64,000 nt of DNA from Methanobacteriota archaeon (GCA_029977605.1 JAPOKN010000002.1:6925-70924); one strand, 5' to 3'; counted from the first letter of the stretch, positions 4,928 to 17,629 are shown. A program made the numbers and translations. Notes: a model not told the origin generated them from the sequence alone.

Positions 4928-5004
4928 GGTGAGGTGGCAGAGCCCGGCTATGCACGCGACTGCAGATCGCGACCACGGGAGTTCGAATCTCTCCCTCACC
5001 ACCA
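4928..5004 (+). tRNA. tRNA-Cys (anticodon GCA) with genomically encoded CCA
   Basis: Hand-folded cloverleaf. Acceptor GGTGAGG/CCTCACC; anticodon stem CGCGA/TCGCG with loop CTGCAGA (GCA at positions 34-36); variable loop ACCAC; T-arm GGGAG-TTCGAAT-CTCTC; discriminator A; then CCA at 5002-5004. It is GC-rich against an AT-rich background. Confidence 0.85.
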
Positions 5005-7890: not shown

Positions 7891-8934
7891 ATGGCTTGTT
7901 TCGGTATAAATATGTCTGAACGTAAGTCACTTGTAATGAGAGGAGTTTCAGAATGTGTTACCGAAGATGAATTAGATAATTTGCTTGCAAATAAAGAAAC
8001 TCCAAGAGCTTACGTCGGATTTGAGCCCTCAGGATTATTGCATGCTGGGTCTCTAGTTCCCATGCTAAAATGTAAAGAACTTGTTGATGCTGGTTTTGAA
8101 GTCACAATACTTTTAGCTGATTGGCACGGATACATTAATGATAAACTCGGAGGTAGTTGGGATAACTTGAATGCAGGTGTAGAGTATCAAAGACAAATGT
8201 TTTCCATATTTTGCCCAGGGGTTAAGTTCAAAACTGCAAGTGAAGTCGTTAACCAAGATGGTTACTGGGAAATGGTTCTTCGTGTTTCTAAAGTAAGTAG
8301 CTTGAAAAGAATGCGTAGAGCGCTATCGATAATGGGAAGAGACGAAAAAGAAGGTGATAAAGACATGTCTAAATTTTTCTATCCAGCTATGCAAGCTACT
8401 GACATCTACGCTTTAGATGCGGATTTGGCACTTGGAGGGATGGATCAAAGACACGCACACATGTTGGCAAGAGATGCTGCTGATAAATTGAAACTGCGAA
8501 AACCTGTTGCACTCCATACACCACTTCTTGGTTCGCTATCTGGACCTGGTAGAATGGATACCGATGTTAAAATGTCTAAATCAGACCCAACAGGAACCTT
8601 GTTAATTCACGATAATAAGAAAAAGCTAACTAAGAAATTGTCTAAGGCATACTGCCCCCCTGAAAGAAAAGGAAATCCAGTTCTAGATCTCTGGCAACAT
8701 TTACTAGAACCAGCACTTGGTAACATAGTAATTGAAAGGCCTGAAAAGTTTGGAGGAAATTTAAGTTTTGAATCATATGAAAAATTAGAGTTGGCTTATA
8801 CATCCGGCTCATTGCACCCTCTCGATTTAAAAAATGGAACTGCAGCAGCTCTTTTCCAACTGGTAAAGCCATTGCAGGATTCCTGTGCAGCAGAACCTGA
8901 AAACTACGAAAACTTACTATCTGCAATTCAATAA
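7891..8934 (+). CDS. tyrS: tyrosyl-tRNA synthetase (archaeal type)
   Basis: It aligns by eye along its length with M. jannaschii TyrRS: YVGFEPSG..H.G, ILLADWHGYIN, GGMDQRHAHMLARD, KMSKS, KAYCP, ERPEKFGGNL, LHPLDLKN. The true start may be the ATG at 7912 (MSERK...). Confidence 0.9.
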   Translation: MACFGINMSERKSLVMRGVSECVTEDELDNLLANKETPRAYVGFEPSGLLHAGSLVPMLKCKELVDAGFEVTILLADWHGYINDKLGGSWDNLNAGVEYQRQMFSIFCPGVKFKTASEVVNQDGYWEMVLRVSKVSSLKRMRRALSIMGRDEKEGDKDMSKFFYPAMQATDIYALDADLALGGMDQRHAHMLARDAADKLKLRKPVALHTPLLGSLSGPGRMDTDVKMSKSDPTGTLLIHDNKKKLTKKLSKAYCPPERKGNPVLDLWQHLLEPALGNIVIERPEKFGGNLSFESYEKLELAYTSGSLHPLDLKNGTAAALFQLVKPLQDSCAAEPENYENLLSAIQ

Positions 8935-11606: not shown

Positions 11607-13976
11607 TTAATTGACTTTAAGAACTTTAAAAGTTGTTGGGCCTACTTTTACTTCATCGCCTTCTTTTGAACCCTCGAGTGATTTACCTATAGGGTTTGAC
11701 AACGGTATTTTCCCTTGCGGAATATTTGCATCTTCTTGGTTAACTAATTCAAAAGTGTGTTCTGTTTCCTTTGTCAAATTTTTAACAACTAGGCTAGTTC
11801 CTACAGAAGCTCCTGTCGATGAAGATGATTCAGCTTCTACAGGCTTATTCAAACTTTCAATACGTGCTTCCTTTATTTTATCTTCCAATTCTTTGTTACT
11901 ATCCGAAAGACTCTGAACCTCTGCATTCATTTCGTCAGCCATTTCTCTTTCTTTCGGTATTTCAATTTCCATCGCCTTAATCTTTCGCTCAGTATCTTCT
12001 TCACTGCCTATAGTTGTTCCTCGAAGGAATTCTAAATCTTCTTTTAGCTTTTCATGCTCTGTCTTCTCAGCCTCTAGCAATCTCTCTGCCTTATTTCTCT
12101 CATCAATGCTAATGTTTAGTTCCGCTTTGGCATCCTCAAATTGTTTCTTGAGTGTTTGCATAACTTTACTCACTTGTTGTGATGCATTTTCTAAAGCTGC
12201 TAAATCTTTCTGAGTCTTTTCTTTACTCCTAACTTCAATCTTTAATTCATCATCAATTTTCTTATTAGATTCTTTTTGATTGTCAACCTGCTCTTGTAAT
12301 TCCTTAAGCGAATCAGTCATACTAAGTATTTCATTTTCTTTTTGCCTGAATTGTTCACTACTTTGCTCGAGTTCAATTATTGTTTGCCTTTCAATATCTA
12401 ATTCATTCATCGTTAATGATGCCTTTTCTCTTGCGTCATTAAGTTCTTTCTTTGCCTTTTCTAAGTTTGTAGTCAATGTCGTAAATTTATCATTAATTCT
12501 TTTCTTATTTTTTTCCATTAATTTGACCTCTCTATCCAATTCTTTTCTTCTATTGATAGCCTCATTTCTTTCTGCAAGGGCCGATTTTTCCCTTTCATTA
12601 GCTTCTAAAGTATGTTGTTCCAATTCCATAATCTCTTTTTCTAAATTGTTCTTTTCTTGAACCGTTTTATCATATGAAGCTTTAACTGAATCATAAGACT
12701 CCAAAGCATTAACTGTATCTGGTTTCTCTAATTTCAATTTCCTCTCAGCGTCAACGGCTTTAGTTTCTGCGTCGTCACTCATGGTCCTTAGAGATCCTAT
12801 TTCTCTGGTCATCCTATCGCTAAGACGCATATCGTTTTCGTGTTTAGCTCTCAAATCTTCAATTTCTTTTTCAAGATTACTCTTTGCGGAAAGATCATCT
12901 AGCAACTCTTTCTCGGCCATTCTAGCTCTCTTCTCAACTTCAGATGTTGCAATTCTTGCAGTTTTCAATTTAGATTCTAGAGAACTATTAAGTGTATTCA
13001 CACTCTGATTTAAGGCTGTAATACGATCTAATTCGTTTTCTAAGTCATCAATACCGTCATAATCTATGTCACTGGTTGAAGCACGAACATCTTCAATTCT
13101 TTTTTCGGCCTCTTTCAACCTTTCTTCAGTATCTTCAAATTCTTGCATTAATTCTTTGCTTTTTTCTAACTCTCCGTCGTGGATTTTTTGCTGTCTTTCA
13201 ATTAGTTCCTGCTTTTTCAAAATCGCTTGCCATTCTTCATCGATATTTCCTAGTATGTAGAGCGTTCCTCCCCCAGTAAGAGCAGTACCTATCAAAACAA
13301 TAAAGAAACCTATTCCTGGACTCCAGGAAACTGGCCCTAATCTTCCAGTGATTCTATCAGCTTCCCCTGCTTGTAGCTGAACATATTCTTCACAATTTCC
13401 CTCGCCATAAAAAGTAAGTAAATTTTTGATACAACCCAGCTCTTTATTCGAATCCGAACCTTCAGTATTTGTTGAAGAAAGTGCTACTTCATCTTGTATT
13501 AATGCATCTGACCAAGTGGTGTAAAACAAAAAGGTTGACAAAAATCCTACTATGAGGACAATAATTGCAAAATATTTCAGATTCTTCAGCGCACTCCTCA
13601 AAGTATTCTGATGTAGACTACTAACTGCATTATTTGCCATGTAAGCAACTACCAAAGCTAAAAGGCCTGCTGCGTACGCAGTCATTTTAGCATTATTGGC
13701 GGAATCTACTTTGTTGAGACAATAAATACAGTCTTGACTATCGTAAGTAACTGAGTTACTATTTCCAGTAGTATCTGTCAGTAAATATGATTCCAAATAA
13801 TAGTGATACTGGAATGTATTATATTGAGTAACATTTCCAGTTACAGGATCTACGGTTTCTCTTGCTCCGTCAATTACAAACCATTTCCCGTAATCTCCAG
13901 TACTATTCACTGAAATTAGAATGCAAAGAAATGTAACAACTGCTACCGCTTGTATTTGTTGTAATTGCTCTTTCAT
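11607..13976 (-). CDS. membrane-anchored (about 4 TM) long coiled-coil protein with GreA/GreB-type C-terminal domain
   Basis: 789 aa. Hydrophobic segments lie in the first ~245 aa. About 450 aa are E/K/L/R-rich and helical. The last ~60 aa, HTFELVNQEDANIPQGKIPLSNPIGKSLEGSKEGDEVKV..FKVLKV, align by eye with the E. coli GreA C-terminus. Confidence 0.75.
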   Translation of the reverse strand: MKEQLQQIQAVAVVTFLCILISVNSTGDYGKWFVIDGARETVDPVTGNVTQYNTFQYHYYLESYLLTDTTGNSNSVTYDSQDCIYCLNKVDSANNAKMTAYAAGLLALVVAYMANNAVSSLHQNTLRSALKNLKYFAIIVLIVGFLSTFLFYTTWSDALIQDEVALSSTNTEGSDSNKELGCIKNLLTFYGEGNCEEYVQLQAGEADRITGRLGPVSWSPGIGFFIVLIGTALTGGGTLYILGNIDEEWQAILKKQELIERQQKIHDGELEKSKELMQEFEDTEERLKEAEKRIEDVRASTSDIDYDGIDDLENELDRITALNQSVNTLNSSLESKLKTARIATSEVEKRARMAEKELLDDLSAKSNLEKEIEDLRAKHENDMRLSDRMTREIGSLRTMSDDAETKAVDAERKLKLEKPDTVNALESYDSVKASYDKTVQEKNNLEKEIMELEQHTLEANEREKSALAERNEAINRRKELDREVKLMEKNKKRINDKFTTLTTNLEKAKKELNDAREKASLTMNELDIERQTIIELEQSSEQFRQKENEILSMTDSLKELQEQVDNQKESNKKIDDELKIEVRSKEKTQKDLAALENASQQVSKVMQTLKKQFEDAKAELNISIDERNKAERLLEAEKTEHEKLKEDLEFLRGTTIGSEEDTERKIKAMEIEIPKEREMADEMNAEVQSLSDSNKELEDKIKEARIESLNKPVEAESSSSTGASVGTSLVVKNLTKETEHTFELVNQEDANIPQGKIPLSNPIGKSLEGSKEGDEVKVGPTTFKVLKVN

Positions 13977-13999
13977 AGAGTTGATTTTACCAGACCTTC

Positions 14000-14007
14000 T
14001 ATTTAAA
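14000..14007 (-). promoter_or_regulatory. TATA box candidate (TTTAAATA on minus strand) 24 nt upstream of the ATG at 13976
   Basis: Exact match to the archaeal TTTAWATA consensus. The spacing implies a leaderless or near-leaderless mRNA. The same geometry occurs at 24941-24948 and 48335-48342. Confidence 0.4.
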
Positions 14008-14083
14008 GTTTTTGATTTTCACTGAGTACTAGTGTGAACAAAGCTATGAGATAACATTTTAATGGAGTAGTCTGTGAACGGCT

Positions 14084-17000
14084 ATGAAGGTCTGCCCAGT
14101 ATGTGAAATGGAAGAAGAGGATAGTGCTCTTTCATGTAGCATGTGTGGTTCTGATTTTGAACCTTCTGTTAAAGAGACTCCACAACAAGAATCGCCGGTC
14201 GACGTTCCCGAAGATATTTCTTCTGATATTGCTGAAATGAGTTTAGGTGATGTAGAAAAAACCGAACCTGAATCAGAAGTGACAAATGAATTAAGTGAAG
14301 AAGAAAAATTATTGGAAGAGACTCTAAGCGCTACTGAAACTGGAGCTTCAGAAGAAAAGTCTGAAAGTAGTTTCACAAAATTTACTGAACAGTTCTCAGA
14401 CATGGGAAAAATATTTGGCGACTTAAACAAAAGACTCGATGGAATATTCCTATCAAAAGGAGAATTGAATTACATTGCACCCTTAACTATAGTTGTACTT
14501 TCAATTTTATTACTTTCAGGAGTAATTGGATTGGCCGTATCTAGTGTACCTGGAACTGACCAAGAATCTTCAGATGGTTACAAACCTACTACACCCTACA
14601 ATAAGGAAATAAATGGAATTACTGTACTAATTGGAAGGGGAGTTGCTGAACCTTTCTCTGGAGAAGCATTCAACTGTGAAATTTGGGATAGTCAAATTTA
14701 CGAAGAGTTTCAAGAAGTTAACGATGAAGGATATTATATTCAATTAACTGACCGTAACGAAAATGGTACTGTCGATGATGAAGAAAGATACGGTTGTCCA
14801 GTCAACATGAAATTTATTAGTACTTTTTCATTTATTATTCTTAATCTTATACTGTTGACTACTGCATTTTACATTTACAACAAAGTTTCAAACACTGCAA
14901 TTATCATACCAGTTATAGGTTTCGCAGTTGTTGAAACTATTTTATTTGCAATATATGGCGGATTATTGAATAACGTTATTTTTGCATTACCTCTAACTAT
15001 TGGCCTCGTATGTACTGTAGGATTGATTGTAGCTTCAGGAGTTTTACTAATAAGAACCTCATTAGGACGTTCACTAAATGATCCTCCTAGTCTTACTTTC
15101 TACATATTTATCATAGCTGCAGCATTATTGTTTTCATCTGTTTTCTATAATTACTCACTTGGCCCTTACGCTATTTGTGACGGAGAATATACTCCCTCTG
15201 AGCTTCTCGATTTAAAAAATAATGTCCCAGAAGATTTAAGAACAGAATGTCAAAATAAAGGATATAAGAATTTGCAAGCCGTACCATTTGACTTAGGAAA
15301 TGGAAGTAACATGATACTACTACTATCTGCAACCTTCCTTTTCTTAGGAGTTGCTAATTCGCTAATTTCTAATACTAAGATTAATGATATTGACGAAGCA
15401 AAATACTTCTCCATGATTCTTTCTGGCCTTGGTCTACAATTTCTCATACTAGTTTTCAATGTAGTAACTAGTGAGGACGGGGGTTTGGGATTTGATGAAA
15501 ATGATACTGCACTAACTATCATGGCTCTTGGAGTAGCAACGATTGGAATGGTTTCATTTTATCGTAAAAGAAGAGGTGAAGCTGGATCAATGGGTGTTGC
15601 CTATTTCGTAATTTTTGCATCCGGAATTTTTGCTCTCTTCGGAACATTTATTGCCCCAGTAGTTCTTGGAGGCAATGACATTGAATGGCCTGAGGACGGG
15701 GATGAGCAATTTAATCTCGTCTTATCTGCTTTAGTTACAGCTGTAGGTTTCTGGCTAAGCTACAGATTTGGATCACAAAAATTGCGTGAACTTTCAATTG
15801 CTAGTGATGCAGCAATGCCTAATCGTCAGGATGCCTTTGCACCATCTGTTCCAGGGGAACAAAAGGCAATGCCCGAGTGGACTGTTGACTCAGCTATGGA
15901 GTTTTTAATGAACGAATATGGCGATGAATTCCAAGTTGAACTTAAACACACTACAGAACACACACCTGATCTCGAATTAGTTGAAAAAACAATGATGGAT
16001 ACTGTGGATCAATCGGTTGAAATCAGACAGGCAATAGAAGTTGACTACGATGTAGATTTCCATGAAATAGCTGAAGCATACTCTACTACGCAAGAAACTG
16101 TTGATGAAGTAATAACTCATTTAACTTCTGGTAAGAACATTATGCTTTTCGGAGAACCTGGAACTGGTAAAACTGCACTATCAAACATATTATTGACAAA
16201 ATTGTGTGGTGAAATTGAGCAACCAAATGGTAGCATGGCTCCAAATTACACTATTGTTACAGCGAATGCAGAATGGTCTAATTTCGATGTTATTGGCGGT
16301 ATCTCACCTGATGACTCTGGAGGATACTACTTCAAAGATGGATATGTAGCTGAAGCTGCAAAATTATGTGAAAAATCAATTCGTGAAAGAGGTAAACCTC
16401 ACTATCTTGTAATTGATGAGTTTAATCGAGCGAATATTGATGAAGCATTTGGTAAATTGTTTACTGTTTTCGAGTATAGAGATAAGCAACCTTTACTAAC
16501 GCACAAAGAAACTGGAGGAGCTCCATTCATGATGCCACCAGAGTTCCGTATTATAGGAACTATGAATACTCAGGATAAAAATACATTATTCAACGTTGGT
16601 TTTGCTCTAATGCGACGTTTTGCTTTTGTTGAAATTGGATTGCCTCTCCCTGAAGATGAATACCACCGTATGCCTGTTTTTGTTTACTTTAAGCTCAAAA
16701 AGCTTGGACTAGTTCCAGACAGACCGGATGGTGATGGTTTATGGAAATTTGGAGAAAAATGCCGACACTTCCCACAAAAGAAATTTGACTTCTACGACGA
16801 TGATGGAAACATGTACGCTTGTCACGAGAAACTGGTTAAATTTTTGGCACCCGGCGAACCACCTAAACGAGGCGACGAAACCCCTCTTGGAGTACGTACC
16901 TTTAGAAAAATTGGACCCGCATTACTTATCGATTCAATGGTTACTATATTTAATTCAATTAAGAAATATGGCCCAGAATTAGCCTTGGACAGAGTCATTA

Positions 17001-17149
17001 GATCCAACATAATGCCTTCACTTGAGGGTTTGGAAAGAAATGAAATAAGGTGCATGTTCTTACATGCGAAAGAAGTGCTTGGCCCTACTTCAATAGTTAC
17101 GGAAACTCTAGACAGAATGGCTAATTCAGACAGTCTAAGTTTATTCTAG
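14084..17149 (+). CDS. zinc-ribbon / acidic linker / ~10-TM / McrB-family (AAA_5-like) NTPase fusion protein
   Basis: 1021 aa. N-terminal CPVCx12CSMC. About 90 aa of D/E/S-rich linker. About 10 hydrophobic helices (aa ~128-565). Walker A GEPGTGKT (nt 16151-16174), Walker B LVIDEFNRANIDEAFGKLF, and IIGTMNTQDKN....ALMRRFAFVEI, which are the McrB-family signatures. Confidence 0.8.
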   Translation: MKVCPVCEMEEEDSALSCSMCGSDFEPSVKETPQQESPVDVPEDISSDIAEMSLGDVEKTEPESEVTNELSEEEKLLEETLSATETGASEEKSESSFTKFTEQFSDMGKIFGDLNKRLDGIFLSKGELNYIAPLTIVVLSILLLSGVIGLAVSSVPGTDQESSDGYKPTTPYNKEINGITVLIGRGVAEPFSGEAFNCEIWDSQIYEEFQEVNDEGYYIQLTDRNENGTVDDEERYGCPVNMKFISTFSFIILNLILLTTAFYIYNKVSNTAIIIPVIGFAVVETILFAIYGGLLNNVIFALPLTIGLVCTVGLIVASGVLLIRTSLGRSLNDPPSLTFYIFIIAAALLFSSVFYNYSLGPYAICDGEYTPSELLDLKNNVPEDLRTECQNKGYKNLQAVPFDLGNGSNMILLLSATFLFLGVANSLISNTKINDIDEAKYFSMILSGLGLQFLILVFNVVTSEDGGLGFDENDTALTIMALGVATIGMVSFYRKRRGEAGSMGVAYFVIFASGIFALFGTFIAPVVLGGNDIEWPEDGDEQFNLVLSALVTAVGFWLSYRFGSQKLRELSIASDAAMPNRQDAFAPSVPGEQKAMPEWTVDSAMEFLMNEYGDEFQVELKHTTEHTPDLELVEKTMMDTVDQSVEIRQAIEVDYDVDFHEIAEAYSTTQETVDEVITHLTSGKNIMLFGEPGTGKTALSNILLTKLCGEIEQPNGSMAPNYTIVTANAEWSNFDVIGGISPDDSGGYYFKDGYVAEAAKLCEKSIRERGKPHYLVIDEFNRANIDEAFGKLFTVFEYRDKQPLLTHKETGGAPFMMPPEFRIIGTMNTQDKNTLFNVGFALMRRFAFVEIGLPLPEDEYHRMPVFVYFKLKKLGLVPDRPDGDGLWKFGEKCRHFPQKKFDFYDDDGNMYACHEKLVKFLAPGEPPKRGDETPLGVRTFRKIGPALLIDSMVTIFNSIKKYGPELALDRVIRSNIMPSLEGLERNEIRCMFLHAKEVLGPTSIVTETLDRMANSDSLSLF

Positions 17150-17164
17150 GATTAAGATTATAGA

Positions 17165-17629
17165 CTAACTAAGTGATTGTGCAAAAGAAACTATCTCGTC
17201 ATAATCGGGTTCTACACCAGGATTCTCAGCTACCCATCTGTGTCTAACTATACCTTCTTTATCAATAACTACAACTACTCTGTTAGCACTTTCGTAACCT
17301 TCAATACCACCTAGACCGACAAATTTTGCATCATATGCTTCAACAACTTCCCTGTCTATATCAGACAATAATTCAAATTTAAGATTATACTTAGAGGCAA
17401 ACTCAGCATTAGCCCATGGAGAATCAACGCTTATGCCAATTACATCAGAATTAGATTCATTTAGCTTTGACAAATTATCTTGAAATGAACACATTTCAGT
17501 ATCGCAAACACCTGTGAATGCACCTGGATAAAATGCTAAAATGACAGTTTTTCCTGCATAATCTGCCAGTGATACATCTTCCTTAGATGTATTTTTCAAT
17601 GTAAAATTAGGTGCAGACTCACCAATCAT
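17165..17629 (-). CDS. peroxiredoxin (AhpC/TSA, Bcp-like)
   Basis: 154 aa. FYPGAFTGVCDTEMC is the peroxidatic Cys context in a thioredoxin-fold-length protein. Confidence 0.82.
   Translation of the reverse strand: MIGESAPNFTLKNTSKEDVSLADYAGKTVILAFYPGAFTGVCDTEMCSFQDNLSKLNESNSDVIGISVDSPWANAEFASKYNLKFELLSDIDREVVEAYDAKFVGLGGIEGYESANRVVVVIDKEGIVRHRWVAENPGVEPDYDEIVSFAQSLS

What the first reader, a model, noticed from the sequence alone, without database searches (positions are those of the whole stretch)
11607..17149. Divergent pair sharing a 107-bp control region: candidate two-component membrane-associated system
Seen in sequence: the two unusual genes above are transcribed divergently from a 107-bp spacer (13977-14083). 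The spacer contains an exact TTTAAATA (minus strand, 14000-14007) 24 nt from the ATG of the coiled-coil gene. An A/T-rich box (acattttaatgg, ~14054-14065) lies ~20-30 nt from the ATG of the NTPase gene. Both products have predicted cytoplasmic effector parts (coiled coil + Gre-C; AAA+), polytopic anchors, and extracytoplasmic loops with paired cysteines.
Established knowledge, from memory: McrB-type GTPases associated with long coiled-coil proteins have been noted in bacterial type-IV-restriction-like systems. Those also encode McrC-type nucleases, which are absent here.
Inference: co-regulated partners forming an envelope-anchored NTPase/coiled-coil assembly. Its function is unknown (defence, chromosome or RNAP tethering, or cell-shape apparatus). 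The flanking genes are housekeeping (pepF, peroxiredoxin), so this does not look like a typical defence island.
Basis: inference. Interest (0 to 1): 0.78.

Follow-up and report, generated by a model that had tools for sequence, protein, structure and literature searches.

The report
Conserved membrane NTPase and coiled-coil pair
Two back-to-back genes found in every Marine Group III archaeal locus examined encode a membrane-embedded McrB-type NTPase and a membrane-anchored long coiled-coil protein ending in a GreA-like domain; they are always kept together and look like an undescribed cellular machine, not a typical anti-virus system.

Summary
ORF A (11607-13976, minus strand) has 4 TM segments, a ~450-aa coiled coil and a GreA/B C-terminal domain. 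ORF B (14084-17149, plus strand) has a zinc ribbon, 10 TM helices and a McrB-family AAA+ module. A 107-bp spacer separates them.

The pairing is not chance. All 51 testable A-anchored metagenome loci have a divergent B, and every B1 locus with upstream DNA has A, down to 32% A identity and in an unrelated gene neighbourhood. Two TATA-like boxes, each about 21-25 nt from its ATG, are conserved in 63 distinct spacers.

All named sources are marine Poseidoniia, mostly Marine Group III. The pair is absent from viral contigs and has native GC and codon usage. B's NTPase module is 90-93% identical where ELP3 is 84-89%.

These genomes also carry a paralog, B2. It never has A and is always followed by an orphan soluble protein, C2. 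The NTPase+C2 module also occurs in other Thermoplasmata.

Best reading: A and B1 are dedicated partners in a constitutive envelope-anchored NTPase machine, with A in the slot that C2 fills for B2. A physical complex, co-regulation and function are not shown. It is a new variant of McrB-type systems.

The parts
11607..13976 (-). Gene A: 789-aa membrane-anchored coiled-coil protein with a GreA/B C-terminal-like domain.
   Evidence: ORF. Pfam and NCBIfam domains. There are 92 homolog clusters, all from marine Poseidoniia/MGIII.
13242..13976 (-). A residues 1-245: four hydrophobic segments (5-23, about 96-116, 133-151, 224-242) with two acidic, cysteine-bearing loops predicted to face outside. 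TM4 carries an invariant GGGT.YI motif.
   Evidence: Kyte-Doolittle scans and loop charges. C182/C195 and G235-G237 are invariant in alignment A2. The topology is inferred; no dedicated predictor was run.
11877..13229 (-). A residues about 250-700: long heptad-repeat coiled coil. It would span about 67 nm as a single helix. Residues 420-652 contain no Pro or Gly, and Pro419 is invariant.
   Evidence: Heptad and helix-breaker analysis; length estimate. This segment is 72-75% identical across MGIII, more than A's own TM or Gre-C parts.
12786..12839 (-). Near-invariant motif ENDMRLSDRMTREIGSLR (A residues 380-397) inside the coiled coil. It is a candidate interaction site.
   Evidence: D382, M383, L385, S386, D387, R388, M389, T390, R391, E392, I393, S395, L396 and R397 are invariant across 13 sequences down to 32% identity. 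A role in binding is inference.
11613..11807 (-). A residues 724-788: GreA/GreB C-terminal domain.
   Evidence: PF01272, E 1.4e-9, above the gathering score. The A profile matches E. coli GreA (1grj) residues 40-155 at E 2.8e-8.
13977..14083 (.). 107-bp divergent intergenic spacer holding two back-to-back promoter-like boxes.
   Evidence: Spacer length is 88-124 bp in related loci.
14000..14007 (-). TTTAAATA, the TATA-box candidate for gene A, 23 nt from its ATG. This spacing fits a leaderless transcript.
   Evidence: It sits within the block CTATTTAAAGTTT, conserved in 63 unique spacers. Promoter function is inferred from archaeal promoter geometry, which is established knowledge.
14052..14062 (+). 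TAACATTTTAA, the TATA-like box candidate for gene B, 21 nt from its ATG.
   Evidence: Two T positions of the T-run (-27 and -26) score 2.0 bits across 63 spacers. The 10-mer occurs once in the window.
14084..17149 (+). Gene B (called B1 here): 1021-aa protein made of a zinc ribbon, an acidic linker, 10 TM helices and a McrB-family AAA+ NTPase.
14093..14146 (+). B residues 4-21: C4 zinc ribbon (CPVC...CSMC), cytoplasmic.
   Evidence: The cysteines are invariant or nearly invariant. The paralog B2 matches Zn_Ribbon_1 weakly, below the Pfam cut-off (E 0.0028).
14474..15811 (+). B residues about 131-576: 10-TM membrane domain with no detectable relative of known structure.
   Evidence: AF2 model with pTM 0.61 and 10 TM helices. 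Foldseek against the PDB gives a best E of 0.18 and TM-scores below 0.2. No Pfam hit.
14675..14797 (+). B extracytoplasmic loop 1: invariant C198...C238 enclosing an EF-hand-like loop, TDRNENGTVDDEER (222-235).
   Evidence: Alignments. The sequence fits the EF-hand loop pattern D-x-[DN]-x-[DN]-G-x-[ILV]-[DE]-x-x-[DE], recalled from established knowledge. Ca2+ binding was not tested.
15176..15250 (+). B extracytoplasmic loop 2, with invariant C365...C389. In some orthologs this loop holds 130-290-aa Asp-rich insertions.
   Evidence: P0048, P0050.
16064..16648 (+). B residues 661-855: McrB-type AAA+ core. It has Walker A GEPGTGKT, Walker B DEFNRAN, the NxxD signature NTQD, and RR at 844-845.
   Evidence: Alignment to E. 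coli McrB. Motif definitions come from PMC7680126. All are invariant. The whole cytoplasmic segment 661-1021 is 90-93% identical across MGIII.
16649..17146 (+). B residues 856-1021: C-terminal domain ending in ...LSLF. It is shared with a wider NTPase subfamily.
   Evidence: The whole module 641-1013 is matched by out-group proteins P0278, P0279, P0281, P0282, P0284 and P0285.

Best explanation
A and B1 are dedicated partners of a vertically inherited, constitutive, membrane-embedded NTPase machine specific to Marine Group III archaea.

Shown:
- The two genes are always adjacent and divergent, and each has its own conserved TATA-like box.
- B1 keeps every catalytic residue of the McrB-type AAA+ active site.
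- Both proteins are polytopic membrane proteins whose long loops carry invariant cysteine pairs.
- The locus has native composition and is absent from viral contigs.
- The NTPase module is more conserved than ELP3.

Inferred:
- B1 forms a McrB-like ring under the membrane, held there by 10 TM helices per subunit.
- A, probably as a coiled-coil dimer anchored by 4 TM helices, occupies the partner slot. The orphan protein C2 fills that slot for the paralog B2 and for soluble relatives; McrC fills it in classical McrBC.
- A may contact the ring through its invariant DMRLSDRMTREI.SLR segment and contact B1's membrane domain within the bilayer.
- NTP hydrolysis would then be coupled through the long stalk to whatever the terminal Gre-C domain docks on, and through the disulfide- and Ca-stabilised ectodomains to the cell envelope.
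- The role would be cellular (envelope or cell organisation), not restriction of foreign DNA.
For: Linkage:
- 51 of 51 testable A-anchored metagenome loci have a divergent B 88-124 bp away, apart from one 33-bp estimate at locus L137.
- Every B1-type locus with upstream DNA has A.
- The pair persists at 32% A identity and in a locus (L005) with entirely different neighbours.
- Insertions of other genes occur beside the pair but never between the two (window).

Promoters: two conserved boxes sit at fixed distances from each ATG.

Active NTPase: Walker A, Walker B with its Asn, NxxD and the RR pair are invariant.

Core-gene behaviour:
- B's cytoplasmic NTPase segment (661-1021) is 90-93% identical where ELP3 is 84-89% and pepF 68-72%.
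- GC, GC3 and codon usage lie within the window's range.
- Neighbours are housekeeping genes.
- Neither gene was found in 2.9 million viral contigs.
- At least 24 of about 35 genomes show both paralogs.

Partner slot:
- B2 is always followed by C2 and never has A.
- C2 homologs follow the same NTPase module in three other Thermoplasmata-type loci.
- No C2-like ORF lies near A|B1.

Topology: 10 TM helices with N and C termini inside, and acidic outside loops carrying the invariant cysteines.
Against: - No direct evidence of a physical interaction. No multimer prediction could be run.
- Separate TATA boxes and a non-conserved spacer core give no sign of a shared regulator.
- B1 could work with C2 in trans. 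The B1 and B2 AAA cores are 80% identical.
- The family descends from McrB-type restriction motors, and its nearest soluble relatives carry an EVE domain typical of modification-dependent restriction. A defence role is therefore not excluded.
- Archaea have no known Gre-binding site on RNA polymerase, so the target of the Gre-C domain is unknown.
- The guanine-stacking aromatic residue after Walker A is Ala here, so nucleotide specificity is uncertain.
- Prevalence across all MGIII genomes could not be computed.
Confidence: 0.55

Rival explanations
1. The pair is a fixed, chromosomally domesticated anti-virus system. It would be a membrane-anchored derivative of McrBC-type restriction that senses infection at the envelope through its ectodomains. 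It would then act in the cytoplasm, for example by using A's Gre-C domain to interfere with transcription.
For: B1 is a McrB-family NTPase. The closest soluble relatives carry EVE domains. There are weak PADLOC hits to restriction-type ATPases. Coiled-coil partners are a theme of CoCoNuT-type McrBC systems.
Against: No nuclease or other effector domain is present in A or B. The pair does not lie in an island and has native composition. It is inherited in conserved synteny, and the NTPase is more conserved than ELP3, unlike fast-evolving, patchy defence genes. Neither gene is on viral contigs. PADLOC E-values are weak and cover only the P-loop region.
Confidence: 0.25
2. A is a membrane tether or regulator for RNA polymerase, or another transcription component, acting through its Gre-C domain. 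B1 would be the NTPase that loads, releases or remodels it.
For: The Gre-C domain is significant and conserved. In bacteria this domain docks Gre factors on RNA polymerase (established knowledge). A related split system sits next to RNA polymerase subunit genes in L151.
Against: Archaeal RNA polymerase uses TFS, and no Gre-type docking site is known (established knowledge). The Gre N-terminal finger and its acidic tip are not conserved in A. The L151 neighbourhood is a single case and that locus has no A-like gene.
Confidence: 0.12
3. The two genes are functionally unrelated neighbours that stay together only because gene order in this lineage is stable.
For: Much of the surrounding synteny (pepF, ELP3, M24 peptidase, TFB) is also conserved in many loci.
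Against: The pair stays intact where the surroundings differ completely (L005). Other genes have been inserted on either side but never between them. Adjacency held in 51 of 51 loci down to 32% identity. Both genes have the same narrow phyletic range.
Confidence: 0.04

Closest known systems
McrB, the GTPase subunit of McrBC type IV restriction (E. coli, T. gammatolerans; PMC7680126)
   Same: B1 has an AAA+ core of the same family: Walker A, DExxNRAN, the NxxD signature and an adjacent Arg-Arg pair. McrB is the best PDB and NCBIfam match. McrB also works with a dedicated partner encoded next to it.
   Different: B1 has no McrC and no nuclease. Its N-terminal part is a zinc ribbon plus 10 TM helices, not a DNA-binding domain. 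It has an extra conserved C-terminal domain. The guanine-stacking aromatic residue is missing. Its partner is divergently transcribed, not co-directional. It behaves as a core gene.
CoCoNuT and CoCoPALM systems: coiled-coil-associated McrBC variants (PMC11090510)
   Same: These also combine a McrB-type NTPase with long coiled coils. CoCoPALM GTPases are fused to a TM plus coiled-coil (FtsB-like) segment. Some have McrC homologs with lost nucleases.
   Different: Those systems have the shortened NxD signature, whereas B1 has NxxD. Their coiled coil is fused to the GTPase or to McrC. They carry HEPN or other nucleases. They are bacterial and nearly absent from archaea.
GreA/GreB transcript-cleavage factors
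   Same: A's last ~65 residues are a bona fide GreA/B C-terminal domain preceded by coiled coil.
   Different: A is 789 aa, membrane-anchored and archaeal. It has no GreA_GreB_N hit, and the acidic tip (D41/E44 in E. coli GreA) is not conserved.
The paralogous B2-C2 system of the same genomes, and NTPase-C2 modules of other Thermoplasmata (undescribed; found here)
   Same: B2 has the same zinc ribbon, TM domain and NTPase architecture, with an 80% identical AAA core. The out-groups share the same C-terminal domain.
   Different: B2's partner is the soluble orphan protein C2, co-directional with an overlapping stop and start. B2 has no A-like gene.

Membership tests
McrB-family AAA+ NTPase | Walker A GxxGxGK[T/S], and Walker B D[D/E]xx followed by the conserved Asn (DEINRAN in E. 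coli). | tested here: met
   GEPGTGKT (690-697) and DEFNRAN (778-784) are invariant in 13 sequences.
McrB-family AAA+ NTPase | NxxD signature (consensus loop) in place of sensor I. | tested here: met
   N828-T-Q-D831 aligns with E. coli N333-T-A-D336 and is invariant.
McrB-family AAA+ NTPase | Adjacent Arg-Arg acting as trans sensor II and arginine finger. | tested here: met
   ALMRRFAF (R844, R845) aligns with E. coli ALRRRFSF.
McrB-family AAA+ NTPase | Aromatic residue after Walker A that stacks on guanine (F209 in E. coli, W223 in T. gammatolerans), giving GTP specificity. | tested here: not met
   B1 reads GKTA where E. coli reads GKTF. Nucleotide preference is unknown.
McrBC type IV restriction system | An adjacent McrC partner (DUF2357 finger plus PD-(D/E)xK nuclease). 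| tested here: not met
   There is no such gene in the window or next to any B1. The paralog's partner C2 shows no similarity to E. coli McrC (hhalign probability below 1%) or to any PDB chain. The acidic and Lys residues of a candidate nuclease motif are not conserved.
McrBC type IV restriction system | An N-terminal DNA- or modified-base-binding domain on McrB. | tested here: not met
   The N-terminus is a zinc ribbon, an acidic linker and 10 TM helices. EVE domains occur only in soluble out-group relatives.
McrB-family AAA+ NTPase | Hexameric ring whose hydrolysis is stimulated by the partner. | not testable with these tools
   This needs biochemistry or multimer modelling.
CoCoNuT / NxD-clade McrBC | Shortened NxD signature; coiled coil fused to the GTPase; tandem nucleases (HEPN and others). 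| tested here: not met
   B1 has the NxxD motif. The coiled coil is on a separate protein. No nuclease domains are present.
GreA/GreB transcription elongation factors | C-terminal globular domain (PF01272). | tested here: met
   38.3 bits against a cut-off of 26.9, E 1.4e-9. The A profile matches 1grj at E 2.8e-8.
GreA/GreB transcription elongation factors | N-terminal antiparallel coiled-coil finger with a conserved acidic tip (D41, E44); a small soluble protein of about 160 aa. | tested here: not met
   There is no GreA_GreB_N Pfam hit. The residue aligned to D41 is not conserved, and E44 aligns to Met. No helix breaker lies between P674 and P712 where a hairpin tip would be. All NCBIfam GreA scores are far below their cut-offs.
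MoxR-type AAA+ (the name given by JGI to some homologs) | MoxR (AAA_3) core and a VWA-domain partner. | tested here: not met
   The best matches are AAA_5 and McrB. There is no AAA_3 hit, and no VWA gene in any locus.

The most novel reading that the evidence does not exclude
A restriction-type McrB motor has been exapted in Marine Group III archaea into an essential transmembrane mechanochemical apparatus. In this reading a ring of B1 under the membrane engages a roughly 30-65 nm coiled-coil/Gre-C protein in place of a nuclease. It would couple NTP hydrolysis to the cell envelope, or to positioning of the transcription or chromosome machinery. It would run alongside a second, equally undescribed NTPase+C2 module shared with other Thermoplasmata.
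Probability: 0.3. Interest if true: 0.8.

Novelty: new variant of a known kind. Interest (0 to 1): 0.62.

Why it matters
Marine Group III archaea are uncultured and widespread in the deep and surface ocean, and their cell biology is essentially unknown.

This is a strictly conserved pair of large membrane proteins, with an NTPase more constrained than a universal tRNA-modification enzyme. That marks a major unrecognised piece of their cell machinery.

It also shows a McrB-type motor working without any nuclease, with a partner of a new kind, and with a membrane domain that has no structural relative.

The work uncovers an unannotated partner family (C2) for this NTPase clade across Thermoplasmata. 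It also places a GreA-type domain in archaea, which lack Gre factors, raising the question of what that domain binds.

Tried and rejected
- **C2 structure.** The AF2 model of C2 failed (mean pLDDT 40.6), so no fold search was run on it.
- **C2 as McrC.** This is not supported. There were no Pfam, NCBIfam or PADLOC hits, even at E 10 for Pfam and NCBIfam. There were no PDB hits with the single sequence or a 9-sequence profile. hhalign against E. coli McrC gave probability below 1%.
- **C2 as a nuclease.** My visual PD-(D/E)xK call (PEIF...FE.KY) is rejected, because the E and K are not conserved in out-group C2 proteins.
- **B's membrane domain.** Foldseek of the AF2 model against the PDB found nothing meaningful.
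- **Shared ancestry between partners.** hhalign found no homology between the A and B membrane domains (probability 5.6%) or between A and C2.
- **A's C-terminal 150 aa as a whole GreA.** Rejected: the similarity upstream of the C-terminal domain is coiled-coil bias.
- **Organism behind L146.** I first guessed that the 5.16-Mb genome was Asgard. The source names it "Thermoplasmata archaeon".
- **Bacterial relative P0289.** Its downstream gene is not C2-like.
- **Viral contigs.** Scans for both A and B were negative.
- **Literature.** Four searches found no description of this pair. One "GreA" hit was the word "greater".
Full report
**Observation**

- Gene A (11607-13976, minus strand, 789 aa) ends in a GreA/GreB C-terminal domain: PF01272, E 1.4e-9, above Pfam's cut-off.
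- Gene B (14084-17149, plus strand, 1021 aa) carries an AAA_5 domain. Its best curated and solved relatives are McrB: NCBIfam E 8.6e-19 and PDB 6hz4 E 3.4e-19.
- The flanks are an M3 oligopeptidase and a peroxiredoxin.
- The rest of the window is ordinary chromosomal housekeeping DNA, including FttA, ArgRS, HMG-CoA reductase, succinate dehydrogenase and urocanase.

**Anatomy of B**

- It starts with an N-terminal C4 zinc ribbon followed by a variable acidic linker.
- An AF2 model of residues 120-640 (pTM 0.61) shows ten TM helices. This places both the zinc ribbon and the NTPase in the cytoplasm.
- The model has no meaningful match in the PDB: best Foldseek E is 0.18 and TM-scores are below 0.2.
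- The two long acidic outside loops each hold an invariant cysteine pair, C198/C238 and C365/C389.
- Loop 1 also holds a conserved EF-hand-like loop, TDRNENGTVDDEER. Loop 2 accepts large Asp-rich insertions in some orthologs.
- The cytoplasmic module keeps Walker A (GEPGTGKT), Walker B with its Asn (DEFNRAN), the McrB NxxD signature (NTQD) and the adjacent Arg-Arg pair. Niu et al. define these as the McrB catalytic machinery.
- The aromatic residue that stacks on guanine is Ala, so GTP specificity is uncertain.

**Anatomy of A**

- It has four hydrophobic segments with two acidic outside loops; C182/C195 are invariant.
- About 450 residues of heptad repeats follow, with almost no helix breakers. 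Inside them is a near-invariant motif, ENDMRLSDRMTREIGSLR.
- The Gre-C domain closes the protein.
- The phmmer alignment to E. coli GreA runs into GreA's N-terminal finger. However, the acidic tip residues are not conserved, and no hairpin break exists there. Only the C-terminal domain is homologous.

**Is the pairing real?**

Yes, from both directions.
- A scan of species-representative genomes with a B profile gave 60 loci from about 35 genomes. Eleven records are explicitly named Marine Group III; the others carry generic archaeal or Poseidoniia labels, and four are labelled Thalassarchaeaceae. The window is 98% identical to MGIII CG-Epi1.
- Every B1-type locus with upstream DNA has A on the opposite strand.
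- A metagenome scan with an A profile gave 76 loci. All 51 with enough upstream sequence have a divergent B.
- Spacers are 88-124 bp, apart from one 33-bp estimate at locus L137.
- The pair persists at 32% A identity and in L005, whose neighbours (response regulators, a histidine kinase) are unrelated to those of the window.
- Other genes have been inserted beside the pair but never inside it. Examples are the peroxiredoxin here and a 2OG-Fe oxygenase, a PAP2 protein and a cupin elsewhere.

**The spacer**

Across 63 distinct spacers only two blocks are conserved.
- CTATTTAAAGTTT reads TTTAAATA on A's strand and lies about 23-25 nt from A's ATG.
- TAACATTTTAA lies about 21 nt from B's ATG.
- The middle of the spacer varies in sequence and length.

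This fits two back-to-back archaeal TATA boxes driving leaderless mRNAs, an inference from known archaeal promoter geometry. It does not show a shared regulator.

**Core gene or defence gene?**

The evidence favours a core cellular gene.
- GC, GC3 and codon usage of A and B sit inside the window's distribution.
- Neither gene occurs in 2.9 million viral contigs.
- B's cytoplasmic NTPase segment (residues 661-1021) is 90-93% identical in genome pairs where ELP3 is 84-89% and pepF 68-72%.
- A's coiled coil (72-75%) is better conserved than A's own membrane or Gre-C parts.
- No nuclease or other effector domain is detectable.

**Unexpected context: a paralog with a different partner**

- At least 24 of the roughly 35 genomes carry a second copy, B2, with the same zinc ribbon, TM domain and NTPase architecture. 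Against B1 its AAA core is 80% identical and its TM domain 32%.
- B2 never has A. It is always followed, with abutting or overlapping reading frames, by C2, a soluble ~692-aa protein.
- C2 has no Pfam, NCBIfam, PADLOC or PDB match.
- An exhaustive HMMER search shows that B's whole cytoplasmic module, including its C-terminal domain, defines a wider subfamily.
- In other Thermoplasmata this module is soluble and fused to TPR and EVE domains, or split from separate zinc-ribbon and membrane proteins. There too it is followed by a C2 homolog: hhalign E 9e-47, and hmmsearch E 4e-83, 9e-78 and 4e-51.
- So the ancestral unit appears to be NTPase plus C2.
- C2 could not be shown to be McrC-like. A candidate nuclease motif is not conserved. 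Its AF2 model failed.

**Interpretation**

The best-supported reading is that B1 and A form a dedicated two-protein membrane machine. After duplication of the NTPase gene, B2 kept C2, while the B1 copy is paired with A and has no C2 gene beside it.

By analogy with McrBC, where the partner inserts into the asymmetric hexamer and tunes hydrolysis, A may engage the B1 ring through its invariant coiled-coil motif. It may also engage B1's membrane domain in the bilayer. The Gre-C domain, at the far end of the stalk, would bind an unknown target. These steps are inference.

Rivals are a fixed membrane-anchored defence system, an RNA-polymerase tether, and mere synteny. The last is effectively excluded.

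**Novelty**

Four literature searches found no description of this pair. The census of McrBC diversity describes coiled-coil and TM-linked variants. Those belong to the NxD clade, carry nucleases and are bacterial. Public records call A "GreA/GreB C-terminal domain-containing" and call B "AAA family ATPase", "MoxR-like" or "hypothetical".

I class this as a new variant of McrB-type systems, with moderate to high interest.

Noticed in passing
L055 7992-12864 (MGIII CG-Epi1); likewise L035-L068: There is a second, unannotated system in the same genomes. B2 (zinc ribbon, TM domain and McrB-like NTPase, about 930 aa) is followed, with abutting or overlapping reading frames, by C2. C2 is a ~692-aa soluble orphan protein with no Pfam, NCBIfam, PADLOC or PDB match.
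   Followed up: partly
L146 8001-12965; L150 1700-6219; L151 3552-9784: Other Thermoplasmata encode the same NTPase module in soluble form, fused to TPR and EVE domains with a degenerate tandem AAA module. In L151 it is split from a TSP3-repeat membrane protein and a zinc-ribbon protein. In each case a C2 homolog follows. The L151 operon ends with a 217-aa CxxCxGxG-rich protein.
   Followed up: partly
L055 7239-7925 (minus strand): A 228-aa gene is always divergent from B2, mirroring the A|B1 layout. It has only a weak Gins51_C hit (E 0.017) and may simply be GINS51 kept by synteny.
   Followed up: no
window 17165-17629: The peroxiredoxin downstream of B is absent from the other fetched ortholog loci whose gene tables were examined. 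Those have a 63-aa ORF or a cupin there. This points to a lineage-specific insertion beside the pair.
   Followed up: no
P0048, P0050 (alignment A1, columns about 440-720); L007 8001-11921: Some B1 orthologs carry 130-290-aa Asp-rich insertions of the DxDGDG / thrombospondin-type-3 kind in extracytoplasmic loop 2. This fits an exposed, Ca-binding surface.
   Followed up: no
L004 (GCA_002687335.1); P0059; P0238: Contigs with archaeal genes (TFB, ELP3, Sec61-beta) that carry these systems sit in assemblies labelled Chloroflexi, Dehalococcoidia or SAR86. They are probably mis-binned.
   Followed up: no
L005 4922-7900: The public gene call for B is truncated to 879 aa. The ORF extends to an ATG at 7900, which restores the zinc ribbon and gives a 100-bp spacer.
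   Followed up: yes
L148 1682-5552 (Planctomycetota): Bacterial relatives fuse the NTPase module to DUF4340 and lie in an operon with a Poly_export gene. A partial downstream ORF has a weak C2-profile hit (E 5e-7).
   Followed up: no
window 4928-5004: A tRNA-Cys (GCA) is the only RNA gene detected in the window.
   Followed up: yes
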